The notes under the pieces are model-generated. The model ran no database searches and had not been told where the DNA came from. It saw only the letters and a list, made by a program, of their open reading frames with translations. Shown here one piece after another: positions 34,861-38,085 of a stretch of 64,000 nucleotides of DNA. The stretch is from Escherichia phage ES19, in sequence record MN508616.2; one strand, 5' to 3'. Position 1 is the first letter of the stretch. Each line of letters begins with the position of its first letter. Both the position numbers and the translations under genes were made by a program.

Positions 34861-35442
34861 CTAACCGAGCTTTTTAGTTAATTCATTCCAATGTTTTCTA
34901 CACAAAGAAACATAAATTTCATCACCAATACAGATTTGATTACCTTCTTTAACTGGTGTTCCATCTTCCATTAATCGAGCTGTCATAATAGCTTTTTTAC
35001 CACAATGACAAACTGCCTTTAGTTCAATAAGTTTATCTGCAATCGCCAAAAGTTCTTTAGAACCTTCAAATAATTTTCCAGCGAAATCAGTCCTTAGCCC
35101 ATAAGCCATAACAGGAACATTATATGTATCAACAATTCGACTTAATTGATGCACCTGTTCAGTTTTTAAAAACTGAGCTTCATCTACAAATACACAATGA
35201 ATATCTTTTTGTGCTTCAGCCCATTTATAGAACTCAAAAATATCCATATCATCCGTAATAATATTCGCTTCCTGCTTAATTCCAATGCGAGAAACGACTT
35301 CACAGACAGAATCGCGAGTATCAATAGCAGGCTTAAGAACTAATACACCCATTCCGCGTTCTTTATAATTATGTGCAGCAGTCAAAAGAGAAGCAGATTT
35401 TCCAGCATTCATTGCTGCGTAAGTAAAAATTAAACTCGCCAT
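34861..35442 (-). CDS. tk: thymidine kinase
   Basis: 193-aa ORF; P-loop MNAGKSASLL, VFVDEAQF, C-terminal Zn-binding CHCGKKA...C..C motifs. Confidence 0.9.
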   Translation of the reverse strand: MASLIFTYAAMNAGKSASLLTAAHNYKERGMGVLVLKPAIDTRDSVCEVVSRIGIKQEANIITDDMDIFEFYKWAEAQKDIHCVFVDEAQFLKTEQVHQLSRIVDTYNVPVMAYGLRTDFAGKLFEGSKELLAIADKLIELKAVCHCGKKAIMTARLMEDGTPVKEGNQICIGDEIYVSLCRKHWNELTKKLG

Positions 35443-35451
35443 ATCACCTTC

Positions 35452-35637
35452 TTAAAGCATATTCACATAAGCTATTAATTCGTTTTCTTTCTTATCAAAC
35501 CGATCAGCAAATTCTTCTTGCTGTTCGGGAGATAGCGGGCCGTATTCATCATAAAAGGTGTTTGCTTCTGTATGCTCATCTAGAAGTTCATGGATAAGCT
35601 CAAACAATTTATCTTTTTGTTCTTTACTCAGACTCAT
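35452..35637 (-). CDS. hypothetical small acidic protein
   Basis: 61-aa ORF. Confidence 0.4.
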   Translation of the reverse strand: MSLSKEQKDKLFELIHELLDEHTEANTFYDEYGPLSPEQQEEFADRFDKKENELIAYVNML

Positions 35638-35803
35638 ATATTAATTTCCAGGAGTTTTAAAATAATTCGCTTTTGCTTAAATATTTCCATAGTTAAATGA
35701 CCAGTATCTTTTTGACCGATTCCAATGGCAAAACCTTTATTGACAGCGAGTTCAATTAAATTATCAAGCTCACGTAACACTTCATACTGTAACTCAAAAC
35801 TAT

Positions 35804-36016
35804 TCATTTCGGTTTACCTTCTTTAACGAAATCTGGATAAGGATAAAATCCCGAATAAAATCCTTCACCTTTATGATTGATGCATCCTTTATTAGAACAA
35901 TAGCACCAATAATCGAAATCACAAGCCATTTCATCGTTGCATAAAGCAAAAACAACTGGCCATTTACACTTTTCACAATGGGCATTTTTAAGAATACTAG
36001 TTTGGCTCATAACCAT
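35804..36016 (-). CDS. hypothetical Cys-rich small protein (possible Zn-binding)
   Basis: 70-aa ORF with CEKCKW...C...C..WCYCSNKGC pattern. Confidence 0.4.
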   Translation of the reverse strand: MVMSQTSILKNAHCEKCKWPVVFALCNDEMACDFDYWCYCSNKGCINHKGEGFYSGFYPYPDFVKEGKPK

Positions 36017-36234
36017 GTAACCTTTAAGCAGTATTCTTCTACATGCTGTTTACGACCTTTCTTATCAATAAAGGTATATTCAACGAATGTTCCAATGTAG
36101 TCTTTATCTACATCATGCGGACTATTAATTGGACATTTAGTACGGCAAATGCGTTCCCATTGACGAATAATTACTGCCTTATTCTTTGGGTCATATGGAT
36201 GTGGATAATGTATATTCATAATAACGGTTCCCAA
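36007..36234 (-). CDS. hypothetical small protein
   Basis: 75-aa ORF. Confidence 0.4.
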   Translation of the reverse strand: MGTVIMNIHYPHPYDPKNKAVIIRQWERICRTKCPINSPHDVDKDYIGTFVEYTFIDKKGRKQHVEEYCLKVTWL

Positions 36235-36683
36235 TCAACAATCACAATTTCTAATTTAGAGGAATATGTATCTAAAATCCCCTCAATAATATCCCAGTTC
36301 CCTTTACCTATGCCTGCACCAATCCTAGGCATATAGATTGTAGGTTTAATCAGTTTATTTTCACCAAACTCATTTAATTCTAACATACAATTCATTAAAG
36401 CGGAATACTCAAAATTTGGCCCTGGTTGAAATTGAGTATAAAGGTTGAAGCAATACGCTTTATGAGTCCTAAAGTATTTTTCATAGACTGAGTAAGAACC
36501 GAGTTTAGTTACATCACCCCATTCAGTCTGTAATTTATCAGCTTCCAAAATTTTAGGGAAAGCTTTGGTTAATTGACCCGCTACGCCTGAACCCATAGTA
36601 TGAAAACAATTGCATCCATGCGCAATATTTTTACCTTCAGCGAAAAGGGTGACAATATCGCCCTTGATATATTTTACAATCAT
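36216..36683 (-). CDS. macro-domain-like (ADP-ribose-binding/processing) protein
   Basis: 155-aa ORF with Gly-rich motifs HTMGSGVAGQ and RIGAGIGKG resembling macro-domain ligand-binding loops; assignment from motif reading only. Confidence 0.4.
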   Translation of the reverse strand: MIVKYIKGDIVTLFAEGKNIAHGCNCFHTMGSGVAGQLTKAFPKILEADKLQTEWGDVTKLGSYSVYEKYFRTHKAYCFNLYTQFQPGPNFEYSALMNCMLELNEFGENKLIKPTIYMPRIGAGIGKGNWDIIEGILDTYSSKLEIVIVDWEPLL

Positions 36684-37021
36684 CTAGTACTCAATCCTCG
36701 ATTATAAGAATCTACCAAACGGTCAACCATTGAATGACAAGCGGCTTTATCTTTCTCCTCCGCAACTGAACATTCTAAGGTATTCCACTTTTTAGCATAT
36801 CGTTTTAATAATGTATCGTTTTTGTATCTGCTTGATTTATCTCTTTCTCCGTCTTTATATGCATATATTAATTTCTGCGCAAATTCAGCTTGGCATGCTT
36901 TATTTTTCCCACAATAATCCGCGGCAGTACGGTTTACATACTCTCTAATTTCAGTATATGATGTATCTGCTAACGCAGAAAATGAAATTAATCCTATACA
37001 TAAAACCAAAATTTTAGTCAT
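36680..37021 (-). CDS. hypothetical secreted protein
   Basis: 113-aa ORF with signal peptide MTKILVLCIGLISFSALA and four Cys. Confidence 0.45.
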   Translation of the reverse strand: MTKILVLCIGLISFSALADTSYTEIREYVNRTAADYCGKNKACQAEFAQKLIYAYKDGERDKSSRYKNDTLLKRYAKKWNTLECSVAEEKDKAACHSMVDRLVDSYNRGLSTR

Positions 37022-37559
37022 TTACTATTTCCAAAAGTTTATTATTTTTAAGGTAATTAGCCTTTTCTAGGACTTCAGAAGCATATTTAGAACCAGCTTT
37101 AACATTCCATCCCGAATTATAAGAGGATATTGCTTTTCTTATATCGCCCTTATGTATATTTAACCAATAAGAAAGTTCAATGTACGCCCAGGAAGCTGAA
37201 TTGGATCGTTTATTCAACATTCTTTTTATTTCAGCATCGGTCATATTATAACCAAGTTCCTTAACTCTTGCTCGCATAGTAGGCAAATAATTTTGGAACA
37301 TTCCATAAGCGTGATGCTTTGGTTTAGATTTTAAATTAACTCCGCCAGAGCTTTCTTGCCATAAAATGGCTGCCATTATATGGCCTAATCCGCTCTTGTG
37401 GATGTTTTTGTGTGTTTTATATTTTCCATCCTTAGAAAATTGTTCCCCGAATTGATACGCGTAACGCATGTTATCGAGTTGGACATTACTGAAAGTATGC
37501 TCGGAGCTATGTGCCATCATTGAAATGGCCAATAGACCAGCGAGTAGTGCTTTTCTCAT
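37014..37559 (-). CDS. secreted lytic-transglycosylase-like (SLT-fold) protein
   Basis: 181-aa ORF with signal peptide MRKALLAGLLAISMMAHS; ILWQESSGG...AYGMFQ...YNSG motifs resembling the SLT catalytic region. Confidence 0.5.
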   Translation of the reverse strand: MRKALLAGLLAISMMAHSSEHTFSNVQLDNMRYAYQFGEQFSKDGKYKTHKNIHKSGLGHIMAAILWQESSGGVNLKSKPKHHAYGMFQNYLPTMRARVKELGYNMTDAEIKRMLNKRSNSASWAYIELSYWLNIHKGDIRKAISSYNSGWNVKAGSKYASEVLEKANYLKNNKLLEIVND

Positions 37560-37566
37560 GCTTACC

Positions 37567-38028
37567 TCATTGAGTTTTAATTACTGCTTTAGAAGCCTTT
37601 CCTGGTAAACGACGACTGTTGATAATTGCCATCCTGCATTGAAGTGACGGGTTTTTGAACTTCTCATTAGGCTTACAAACCGTAAATCCAAGCCAAAGAT
37701 TTCCATCTGTGATTTCTAAACGTCCAGGACGATATTCAACCCCATCAATAAAATCCTCGTCAATGTCAGGACGCGGAGGCATACTCAGGAATTCATTAAC
37801 TTCTAAAACATGGTCTTTTATTTTATGGAATAATTCAAAAACATATGTCTCATCAATCTCCCGTTGAATTGCACGATCAAGAAGATGTTGAGAATATTTT
37901 AGATGAAACGATGAGACTCCTGCTGCTTTTGATGCCTCACGAATCTCATTGTTAATTTGACGAAACTCCGACTCAAAATGACGACGAAGCTTATTTCGAC
38001 GGATAAAAACTTCTGTATTGATAGTCAT
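37567..38028 (-). CDS. regB: RegB site-specific endoribonuclease
   Basis: 153-aa ORF MTINTEVFIRRNKLRRHFESEFRQINNEI...; length and sequence match T4 RegB; own early promoter. Confidence 0.85.
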   Translation of the reverse strand: MTINTEVFIRRNKLRRHFESEFRQINNEIREASKAAGVSSFHLKYSQHLLDRAIQREIDETYVFELFHKIKDHVLEVNEFLSMPPRPDIDEDFIDGVEYRPGRLEITDGNLWLGFTVCKPNEKFKNPSLQCRMAIINSRRLPGKASKAVIKTQ

Positions 38029-38056
38029 GTTGTTCTCCTCTTAACTGATAGAAAAA

Positions 38057-38085
38057 TTATACCACAGTCAAGAGGAAAAGTAAAC
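38057..38085 (-). promoter_or_regulatory. T4-type early promoter for regB (-35 GTTTAC, -10 TATAAT)
   Basis: Minus strand GTTTACTTTTCCTCTTGACTGTGGTATAAT followed by GAGGAGAACAAC ATG. Confidence 0.6.

What the first reader, a model, noticed from the sequence alone, without database searches (positions are those of the whole stretch)
36216..36683. Possible macro-domain protein
A 155-aa early protein has Gly-rich loops (HTMGSGVAGQ, RIGAGIGKG) suggestive of a macro domain. T-even phages encode ADP-ribosyltransferases (Alt, ModA, ModB), and a macro domain could reverse or read ADP-ribosylation or degrade nucleotide signals.
Basis: inference. Interest (0 to 1): 0.45.

Follow-up and report, generated by a model that had tools for sequence, protein, structure and literature searches.

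The report
T4 Tk.4/AdfM anti-DarT2 macrodomain

Summary

The protein is 154/155 identical to T4 Tk.4 and sits in the same regB–vs.1–vs–tk.4–tk.3 gene order. A 2025 preprint named tk.4 adfM. It was the only T4 gene needed against DarTG2, and a clean knockout sensitised T4. So the finding is already known.

What this work adds concerns the active site.
- Tk.4 does not have a DarG-type active site. The catalytic Lys of TARG1, DarG and PhiKZ "AdfM" gp104 is an invariant Gln (Q84, 119/119 homologues).
- Its partner Asn25 (118/119) and the Gly122/Gly124 loop are conserved.
- This matches the Gln-type hydrolase SCO6735, where Q85A abolishes activity and the enzyme cleaves thymidine-linked ADP-ribose on DNA.
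- Tk.4 lacks SCO6735's longer mobile loop.

The clade occurs in about 5% of phage genomes, and the relatives examined have no DarT neighbour. Hydrolysis by Tk.4 itself has not been shown. Interest is low to moderate.

The parts
36216..36683 (-). tk.4 / adfM coding sequence: 155 aa plus TGA, a single macro domain spanning the whole protein
36573..36620 (-). Loop 1, residues 22-37 (H-G-C-N-C-F-H-T-M-G-S-G-V-A-G-Q). It holds Asn25 (equivalent to SCO6735 Asn27 and PhiKZ gp104 Asn23), Gly23 (equivalent to SCO6735 Val25, whose backbone carbonyl positions the proposed catalytic water) and the G-x-G motif.
   Evidence: Conservation in 119 homologues: H22 114, G23 118, C24 113, N25 118, C26 118, G33 119, A35 119. 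Roles of the equivalent residues come from PMC9411070 and PMC13309987.
36432..36446 (-). N-L-Y-T-Q motif, residues 80-84, at the end of strand beta 75-82. Gln84 occupies the position of the catalytic Lys of TARG1 (K84), DarG (K80) and PhiKZ gp104 (K77).
   Evidence: Profile alignment to TARG1. MAFFT alignments. Q84 is 119/119. SCO6735, Bt_1257 and ALC1 also have Gln here. Strand register comes from the model.
36294..36329 (-). Loop 2, the diphosphate-binding loop, residues 119-130 (P-R-I-G-A-G-I-G-K-G-N-W). Gly122 and Gly124 are equivalent to SCO6735 Gly126 and Gly128. Gly126 sits where TARG1 has the catalytic Asp125.
   Evidence: P119, I121, G122 and G124 are invariant in 119/119. G128E reduces SCO6735 activity.
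36680..36683 (-). ATGA overlap of the vs stop codon with the tk.4 start codon, suggesting translational coupling. A GAGG lies about 13 nt upstream.
   Evidence: Sequence read directly. Same arrangement in T4.
36216..36219 (-). ATGA overlap of the tk.4 stop codon with the tk.3 start codon
   Evidence: Sequence read directly. tk.3 is DUF7202.
38056..38084 (-). Tentative sigma-70-like promoter (TTTACT-17-TGnTATAAT) upstream of regB. It could drive the regB-vs.1-vs-tk.4 run.
   Evidence: Best minus-strand consensus match (10/12, extended -10). The number of sites in the region is not above the shuffled expectation, so this is only a hint.

Best explanation
The ORF is the orthologue of bacteriophage T4 tk.4 (adfM, 'anti-DarT factor macrodomain'). 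It is a stand-alone, single-domain macro-domain protein of the ALC1-like class, made early in infection. It protects the phage against the host DarTG2 toxin-antitoxin defence. In that system DarT2 ADP-ribosylates the N3 of thymidine in single-stranded DNA and blocks phage DNA replication.

Most likely mechanism (inferred, not shown): Tk.4 binds the ADP-ribose moiety through its two Gly-rich loops and hydrolyses the thymine-ribose N-glycosidic bond, releasing ADP-ribose and restoring the base.

The active site is not DarG- or TARG1-like. The catalytic Lys is replaced by an invariant Gln84, held by an invariant Asn25. This is the arrangement shown by mutagenesis to be essential in the Gln-type hydrolase SCO6735. 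There, Gln positions the distal ribose and a backbone-bound water is proposed to start catalysis.

Shown here: the ORF, the fold, orthology to T4 Tk.4, the residue pattern, and the distribution. Taken from the literature: the DarTG2 phenotype of T4 delta-tk.4, and the SCO6735 biochemistry. Inferred: that Tk.4 itself hydrolyses dT-ADPr, and that it uses the SCO6735-type mechanism.

The confidence of 0.72 is for the whole chain. Macro domain and Tk.4 orthology are above 0.98, the anti-DarTG2 role is about 0.85, and hydrolysis by a Gln-type site is about 0.65.
For: - Identity: 154/155 aa to T4 Tk.4 with the same neighbours. The DNA is 100% identical to Tequatrovirus ES21.
- Function: in the T4 transposon screen tk.4 was the single significant hit on a DarTG2 host, and a clean knockout sensitised T4 (bioRxiv 10.1101/2025.11.20.689424).
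- Mechanism precedent: SCO6735 has Gln85 at the Lys position. Q85A is dead, N27S nearly dead and G128E reduced. It cleaves dT-ADPr but not dG-ADPr and rescues E. coli from DarT (PMC9411070). Tk.4 has the equivalents Q84 (119/119), N25 (118/119) and G122/G124 (119/119).
- Hydrolase rather than reader: the non-catalytic reader ALC1 also has Gln, but has Asp at the Asn25 position and Ala at the Gly124 position.
- Consistency check: the DarTG2-sensitive control phage T5 encodes no macro domain (best E 0.044), whereas the window has exactly one (E 2.6e-64).
Against: - No enzymatic assay of Tk.4 exists in the papers I could read. The preprint itself says only that removal of ADP-ribose 'seems likely'.
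- Tk.4 lacks the catalytic Lys that is indispensable in DarG and TARG1.
- It also lacks two features the authors regard as characteristic of the SCO6735 subclass: the 5-aa-longer Lys-bearing mobile loop, and Val/Ile25 (Tk.4 has Gly23).
- The Lys-to-Gln equivalence rests on sequence alignments and strand register, not on a 3D superposition I could inspect. Two pairwise alignments put this loop in other registers. The single-sequence phmmer alignment to Bt_1257 is shifted by 6. The low-confidence stretch of the hhalign alignment to gp104 is shifted by 2.
- The genetic evidence is a preprint, from one DarTG2 system, at 30 C in minimal medium.
- The T5 absence is a single data point.
Confidence: 0.72

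Rival explanations
1. Non-catalytic or dual antagonist. Tk.4 would neutralise DarT2 mainly by binding the toxin (interaction-inhibition), or by binding ADP-ribosylated DNA, rather than by hydrolysis.
For: DarG, TARG1 and especially SCO6735 inhibit DarT even as catalytically dead mutants (PMC9411070). Tk.4 lacks the canonical catalytic Lys. ALC1, another Gln-type macrodomain, is a pure reader (established knowledge).
Against: Strict conservation of Q84, N25, G122 and G124 across 119 diverse homologues from many phage groups and hosts. That is what an active site predicts, not a toxin-specific interface. Tk.4 has no counterpart of DarG's C-terminal DarT-binding domain, being 155 aa against 338-372 aa. 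ALC1 differs at the Asn25 and Gly124 positions, whereas Tk.4 matches the hydrolase SCO6735 there.
Confidence: 0.1
2. Poa1p-like ADP-ribose-1''-phosphate phosphatase. This is the 'phosphatase' of PHROG 335 and of many GenBank records. It would clear a small-molecule by-product of RNA 2'-phosphate removal, or a related ADP-ribose derivative.
Against: Poa1p has Ser, not Gln, at position 84, and N-S-G instead of G-x-G in loop 2. The only phenotype known for tk.4 is specific to DarTG2. T4 Rnl1/PNKP repair does not produce a 2'-phosphate or Appr>p (established knowledge). 'Phosphatase' in PHROGs is an inherited name, not a tested function.
Confidence: 0.07
3. Tk.4 would erase or read the ADP-ribosylation or RNAylation that the phage's own Alt, ModA and ModB place on host proteins, tuning or timing those modifications.
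For: T4 encodes three ADP-ribosyltransferases (PMC8120803). SCO6735 and TARG1 also remove Glu/Asp-linked protein ADP-ribose, so a second substrate class is conceivable.
Against: Alt and Mod modify arginine. The ALC1-like enzymes tested act on Glu/Asp esters and on thymine or uracil N3, and Arg-ADPr reversal is not reported for them. The clade is abundant in phage groups well outside the T-even phages, including Felixounavirus-size, Vequintavirinae-size, Ackermannviridae-size, Pseudomonas, Campylobacter and Bacillus phages. I did not check those for Alt/Mod. No phenotype on plain E. coli K-12 was reported: the gene was depleted specifically on the DarTG2 host.
Confidence: 0.05
4. Degrader or sponge of ADP-ribose-derived immune signals (for example Thoeris gcADPR or other cADPR isomers), as the reader's 'degrade nucleotide signals'.
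Against: The closest structures and residues are those of base-linked ADP-ribose hydrolases, not signal binders. There is no supporting phenotype.
Confidence: 0.03

Closest known systems
T4 Tk.4 = AdfM (anti-DarT factor macrodomain), bioRxiv 10.1101/2025.11.20.689424
   Same: Orthologue: 154/155 aa (A12T), 155 aa in both, identical flanking genes and ATGA overlaps.
   Different: Nothing of substance. The preprint describes it as a DarG homologue and does not, in the passages I read, mention that the DarG catalytic Lys is replaced by Gln.
SCO6735 (Streptomyces coelicolor, PDB 5E3B) and Bt_1257 (PDB 2FG1/2AFC): Gln-type ALC1-like macrodomain thymidine-ADPr hydrolases
   Different: Tk.4 lacks the 5-6-residue-longer 'mobile loop' with its Lys residues: 17 against 22-23 residues across the aligned segment. 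It has Gly23 instead of Val/Ile25. It has H-G-C-N-C instead of H-V/I-C-N-D, and Y-T-Q instead of I-G-Q. It is a phage protein rather than a cellular one. Activity is untested.
DarG antitoxin macrodomain (T. aquaticus 5M31/5M3E, M. tuberculosis 5M3I; NCBIfam NF048014)
   Different: DarG has catalytic Lys80 in an F-P-T-K motif, where Tk.4 has Y-T-Q. DarG is about 340-370 aa with a C-terminal DarT-binding domain and is encoded next to darT. Tk.4 scores 30.5 bits against the 250-bit equivalog cut-off.
PhiKZ gp104, also named 'AdfM' (Cell Rep 2026, PMC13309987)
   Same: A phage stand-alone macrodomain that counters DarTG2. It was shown in vitro to remove DarT2-made ADP-ribose from ssDNA, and the conserved Asn (N23A) is important.
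   Different: Not an orthologue. BLASTP aligns only 23 residues, and hhalign gives 19% identity. gp104 is Lys-type (F-P-T-K) and 37-40% identical to DarT-linked DarG proteins. The two phage lineages acquired anti-DarT2 macrodomains independently.
Human TARG1/OARD1 (PDB 4J5S)
   Different: It uses a Lys84/Asp125 dyad with a covalent intermediate. Tk.4 has Gln84 and Gly126 at those positions.
Yeast Poa1p (PDB 6LFQ), ADP-ribose-1''-phosphate phosphatase
   Different: Ser at position 84, N-S-G in loop 2, a much longer insertion after helix 3, and a small-molecule substrate.

Membership tests
Macro domain (Pfam PF01661) | Score above Pfam's gathering cut-off over most of the model | tested here: met
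   27.7 bits against 22; profile positions 2-113 of 118.
Macro domain (Pfam PF01661) | Three-layer alpha/beta/alpha macro fold | tested here: met
ALC1-like class of macrodomains (TARG1, DarG, SCO6735, Poa1p, ALC1) | Closest structural and sequence neighbours are members of this class rather than MacroD, PARG or macroH2A types | tested here: met
T4 Tk.4 / AdfM orthologous group | Near-identical sequence in the conserved vs-tk.4-tk.3 position of a Tequatrovirus genome | tested here: met
   154/155 aa; same synteny.
T4 Tk.4 / AdfM orthologous group | Required for growth on a DarTG2-expressing host | not testable with these tools
   Reported for T4 itself in the preprint. Not tested for this phage.
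DarG antitoxin (NCBIfam NF048014 equivalog) | Score above the equivalog cut-off | tested here: not met
   30.5 bits against 250.
DarG antitoxin (NCBIfam NF048014 equivalog) | Catalytic Lys (T. aquaticus K80) after the central strand (F-P-T-K) | tested here: not met
   Gln84 in Tk.4 and in 119/119 homologues. Two DarT-linked DarGs, gp104 and TARG1 have Lys.
DarG antitoxin (NCBIfam NF048014 equivalog) | C-terminal DarT-binding domain | tested here: not met
   Tk.4 is 155 aa, all of it macro domain. The DarGs fetched are 347 and 371 aa.
DarG antitoxin (NCBIfam NF048014 equivalog) | Encoded next to darT | tested here: not met
   The neighbours are vs and tk.3. Relatives on a phage-like contig and three plasmids also lack DarT.
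SCO6735/Bt_1257 subclass (Gln-type thymidine-ADPr hydrolases) | Gln at the catalytic-Lys position, essential in SCO6735 (Q85A) | tested here: met
   Q84 is invariant. This is based on sequence alignment, not 3D superposition.
SCO6735/Bt_1257 subclass (Gln-type thymidine-ADPr hydrolases) | Asn (SCO6735 N27) that locks the Gln rotamer, and Gly126/Gly128 of the phosphate loop | tested here: met
   N25 118/119; G122 and G124 119/119.
SCO6735/Bt_1257 subclass (Gln-type thymidine-ADPr hydrolases) | Mobile loop 5 residues longer than in DarG/TARG1, described as characteristic of the subclass | tested here: not met
   The Tk.4 loop has the DarG/TARG1 length. The aligned segment is 17 residues against 22-23 in SCO6735 and Bt_1257. 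84/119 homologues have the short form.
SCO6735/Bt_1257 subclass (Gln-type thymidine-ADPr hydrolases) | Val/Ile at SCO6735 position 25 | tested here: not met
   Gly23 in 118/119. The proposed role is through the backbone carbonyl, so the chemistry is not excluded.
SCO6735/Bt_1257 subclass (Gln-type thymidine-ADPr hydrolases) | Hydrolysis of dT-ADPr on ssDNA | not testable with these tools
   Needs a biochemical assay.
Poa1p-type Appr1p phosphatase | Poa1p active-site pattern (His23, Ser30, Ser at position 84, N-S-G loop) | tested here: inconclusive
   His and Thr/Ser equivalents are present (H22, T29). Position 84 is Gln, not Ser, and loop 2 is G-A-G, not N-S-G. I could not find the Poa1p structure paper in the library.

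The most novel reading that the evidence does not exclude
Tk.4-type proteins would be a third, phage-specific lineage of thymidine-ADPr erasers. They have a Gln-type active site like SCO6735, the short loop of DarG/TARG1, and their own H-G-C-N-C / N-x-Y-T-Q signature. They are present in about 5% of sequenced phage genomes. They were acquired independently of the Lys-type DarG-like 'AdfM' of PhiKZ. Because SCO6735 also acts on uracil-ADPr in RNA and on Glu/Asp-ADPr proteins, Tk.4 could be a broad-spectrum eraser. It might also protect phage transcripts, or counter other ADP-ribosylating defences beyond DarT2.
Probability: 0.3. Interest if true: 0.45.

Novelty: already known. Interest (0 to 1): 0.22.

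Why it matters
The gene itself needs no further discovery. It is T4 tk.4/adfM, several GenBank records already annotate it as a macro domain, and it has been linked genetically to DarTG2 resistance.

The useful residue of this analysis is a correction of detail. The T4 protein has been described as a DarG homologue and shares a name with PhiKZ gp104. Yet its active site lacks the DarG/TARG1 lysine and matches the Gln-type enzyme SCO6735.

That predicts which mutants will be informative: Q84A, Q84K and N25A, with no lysine to target. It warns against transferring DarG mechanism or inhibitors to it. It also shows that phages recruited anti-DarT2 macrodomains at least twice.

The clade is common, with a tblastn hit in 2752 of 50,697 phage records. 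Its substrate range therefore bears on how widely ADP-ribosylating defences are neutralised.

Tried and rejected
- **Plus-strand reading of the coordinates.** It is full of stop codons. The gene is on the minus strand.
- **Filing it as DarG.** Rejected: NCBIfam 30.5 against 250 bits, no catalytic Lys, no C-terminal domain, no darT neighbour.
- **Treating T4 Tk.4 and PhiKZ AdfM as one family.** Rejected: only a 23-residue BLASTP patch and 19% identity by hhalign. gp104 instead groups with DarT-linked DarGs at 37-40% identity.
- **Looking for DarT next to relatives, to test an 'orphan antitoxin' origin.** None was found in one contig and three plasmid loci. Two of those loci look like phage DNA. 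The sample is too small to settle the origin.
- **Promoter and terminator scan.** Counts were at or below the shuffled expectation. Only the site upstream of regB is worth noting.
- **Searching for the Poa1p structure paper, to learn its catalytic residues.** It is not in the library. I relied on the names of the deposited mutants.
- **Alignment caveat.** The single-sequence phmmer alignment to Bt_1257 is ungapped and shifts the catalytic loop by six residues. The hhalign alignment to gp104 shifts it by two in a low-confidence stretch. I preferred the profile alignment and two MAFFT L-INS-i alignments. These agree with each other, with the strand register of the model, and with the published position of the mobile-loop insertion.
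- **Not used:** the large representative-protein search, the metagenome and genome scans, and the second structure prediction. The question was answered without them.

Full report
**Observation.** The coordinates 36216-36683 hold an ORF of 155 codons plus a TGA, but on the minus strand. The plus-strand frame is broken by many stops. The start ATG overlaps the stop of the upstream gene (ATGA, 36683-36680). The stop overlaps the start of the downstream gene (ATGA, 36219-36216). The neighbours on the same strand are regB (37567-38028), vs.1 (37014-37559, which hits the Pfam SLT domain), vs (36680-37021), then this ORF, tk.3 (36007-36219, DUF7202) and, further on, tk (34861-35442). This is the T4 early region.

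**Identity of the window and the gene.** The DNA of the ORF is 100% identical to Escherichia phage ES21, and it matches 649 phage records by megablast, nearly all Tequatrovirus and relatives. In the T4 reference AF158101 the gene in the same position is tk.4, annotated 'conserved hypothetical protein'. The two proteins are identical at 154 of 155 residues, differing only at A12T. The flanking DNA aligns colinearly through vs and tk.3. Other GenBank records already call the orthologue 'macro domain protein', 'Poa1p-like family protein', 'phosphatase' or 'ADP-ribose binding module protein'.

**Is it a macro domain?** Yes.
- Pfam Macro (PF01661) scores 27.7 bits against a gathering cut-off of 22, over profile positions 2-113 of 118.
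- PHROG 335 matches at 1.8e-65, and the PADLOC DarG model at 1.1e-9.
- Sequence searches of the PDB find only macro domains: Bt_1257, Poa1p, SCO6735, TARG1 and DarG.
- An AlphaFold2 model built on 44 homologues has mean pLDDT 94.5 and pTM 0.90.

**What is known about its function.** A bioRxiv preprint of November 2025 (10.1101/2025.11.20.689424) screened a T4 transposon library on E. coli expressing DarTG2. It found tk.4 as the single significant hit. A clean knockout sensitised T4 to DarTG2, and the authors renamed the gene adfM. They state that enzymatic removal of ADP-ribose from DNA 'seems likely', by analogy with DarG. Earlier work had shown that T4 lacking adfA and adfN stays resistant to DarTG2, and had predicted a further factor (PMC11825919).

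A separate 2026 paper gave the same name, AdfM, to PhiKZ gp104. It showed in vitro that gp104 removes DarT2-made ADP-ribose from an oligonucleotide, with N23A reducing activity (PMC13309987). I found no biochemical test of T4 Tk.4.

**The active site is not DarG-like.**
- PhiKZ gp104 is 37-40% identical to macrodomain proteins encoded next to darT on plasmids.
- Tk.4 is only remotely similar to gp104: a 23-residue BLASTP patch, and 19% identity by hhalign.
- I aligned Tk.4 and its homologues with TARG1, two DarT-linked DarGs, gp104, SCO6735, Bt_1257, the ALC1 macro domain and Poa1p. The catalytic Lys of TARG1 (K84), the DarGs and gp104 (motif F/I-P/I-T-K) falls on Gln84 of Tk.4 (motif N-x-Y-T-Q). 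The HMMER profile alignment to TARG1 gives the same pairing.
- TARG1's Asp125 falls on Gly126.
- Gln84 is invariant in all 119 homologues of suitable length, Asn25 is conserved in 118, Gly23 in 118, and Gly122 and Gly124 in 119.

One caveat applies. This equivalence comes from sequence alignments and from the strand register of the model (strand 75-82), not from an inspected superposition. Two pairwise alignments put this loop in other registers. The profile and multiple alignments agree with each other. They also agree with the published location of a loop insertion in Bt_1257 and SCO6735.

**A precedent for a Gln-type site.** SCO6735 of Streptomyces coelicolor, and its 54%-identical relative Bt_1257, are ALC1-like macrodomains that lack the Lys and Asp of TARG1 and have Gln85 instead.
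- SCO6735 removes DarT-made ADP-ribose from thymidine faster than DarG or TARG1. It does not touch guanine-linked ADP-ribose, and it rescues E. coli from DarT.
- Q85A abolishes activity, N27S nearly so, and G128E reduces it.
- The authors propose that Gln85, held by Asn27, positions the distal ribose. A water bound to the backbone carbonyl of Val25 would then start the reaction (PMC9411070).
- Tk.4 has the equivalents Gln84, Asn25 and Gly122/Gly124, and Bt_1257 is its best match among solved structures.
- Tk.4 differs in having Gly at the Val25 position, where only the backbone is invoked.
- It also lacks the five-residue-longer, Lys-bearing 'mobile loop' that the authors consider characteristic of the SCO6735 subclass. 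Its loop has the DarG/TARG1 length.
- The non-catalytic reader ALC1 also carries the Gln, but has Asp at the Asn25 position and Ala at the Gly124 position.

**Distribution and context.**
- tblastn finds a homologue in 2752 of 50,697 phage records. These include T4-like phages of many hosts and genomes of about 86-90 kb, 136 kb and 157 kb, as well as Pseudomonas, Vibrio, Acinetobacter, Campylobacter, Bacillus and Microbacterium phages.
- A relative labelled as a Bacilli MAG lies on a phage-like contig, between T4-type RNA ligase 1, a Dda-like helicase and PNKP.
- Three plasmid-borne relatives have no darT beside them.
- As a small test of the functional link, T5 is used as the DarTG2-sensitive control in both papers. 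It has no detectable macro domain in a six-frame HMM search covering all its unique sequence (best E 0.044). The 64-kb window has exactly one (E 2.6e-64). This is consistent with the link, but it is one phage.

**Explanation and rivals.** The best-supported account is that this is tk.4/adfM, an early stand-alone macrodomain that protects the phage from DarT2. It most likely does so by hydrolysing thymidine-linked ADP-ribose on single-stranded phage DNA with a Gln-type, SCO6735-like active site. The genetics are taken from the preprint. The chemistry is inference from conserved residues.

The rivals, in order, are:
- neutralisation mainly by binding DarT2 or modified DNA;
- a Poa1p-like Appr1p phosphatase, which is the inherited 'phosphatase' label;
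Those marks are Arg-linked, a linkage not reported as a substrate for the ALC1-like enzymes tested;
- degradation of ADP-ribose-derived signals.

**Verdict.** The feature is already known: it is annotated as a macro domain in public records and has been characterised genetically as AdfM. The one point that goes beyond what I found in the literature is that the T4 protein is a Gln-type enzyme, not orthologous to PhiKZ AdfM or to DarG. That sharpens the experiments needed but does not change what the gene is. Interest is low to moderate.

Noticed in passing
window 35452-36016 (minus strand): Just downstream of tk.3 the window stops being colinear with T4. In place of T4 tk.2/tk.1 it carries three ORFs: a 70-aa Cys-rich ORF (35804-36016; Pfam PF23895 phage zinc-binding domain, E 2.6e-29), a 57-aa ORF (35634-35807; PHROG 3452, function unknown) and a tk.2-like DUF7438 ORF (35452-35637). 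This is a small cassette swap in a hyperplastic region.
   Followed up: partly
window 36680-37021 (vs gene, minus strand): The vs gene has a 6-nt in-frame deletion relative to T4, in its N-terminal hydrophobic segment (alignment columns 121-126). The HIDEN-SEQ preprint reports vs as the gene most depleted in minimal medium.
   Followed up: no
window 37014-37559 (vs.1, minus strand): vs.1 is annotated 'conserved hypothetical' in T4. It has an N-terminal signal-like segment and hits the Pfam SLT lytic transglycosylase domain just above cut-off (25.1 against 21.3 bits).
   Followed up: no
literature; L003 2501-3616 and L004 2001-3044 for the DarG comparators: The name AdfM is in use for two non-orthologous phage macrodomains. 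One is T4 Tk.4, which is Gln-type and closest to Bt_1257/SCO6735. The other is PhiKZ gp104, which is Lys-type and 37-40% identical to DarT-linked DarG. This invites wrong transfer of mechanism between them.
   Followed up: yes
L011 2808-4028 and 6243-6872 (Vibrio parahaemolyticus 938-kb replicon CP099927): Here the Tk.4-like macro domain is the C-terminal part of a 406-aa protein. A NADAR-family gene (the AdfN/DarG1 type of eraser) lies about 2 kb downstream, and an NMN adenylyltransferase gene lies upstream. This may be a combined anti-ADP-ribosylation and NAD neighbourhood.
   Followed up: no
L005 (GCA_051648945.1 contig, 'Bacilli bacterium' MAG), macro gene at 1927-2397: A contig binned as bacterial looks like a T4-like phage. 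The macro gene is flanked by T4-type RNA ligase 1, a Dda-like helicase, a T4-type spanin, PNKP and a dCMP deaminase.
   Followed up: no
window 36216-36683 against PDB 2fg1: The single-sequence phmmer alignment to Bt_1257 is ungapped and puts the catalytic loop six residues out of register. Only the profile and multiple alignments recover the Gln-Gln pairing and the loop insertion. This is a warning for residue-level inference from pairwise hits at about 25% identity.
   Followed up: yes
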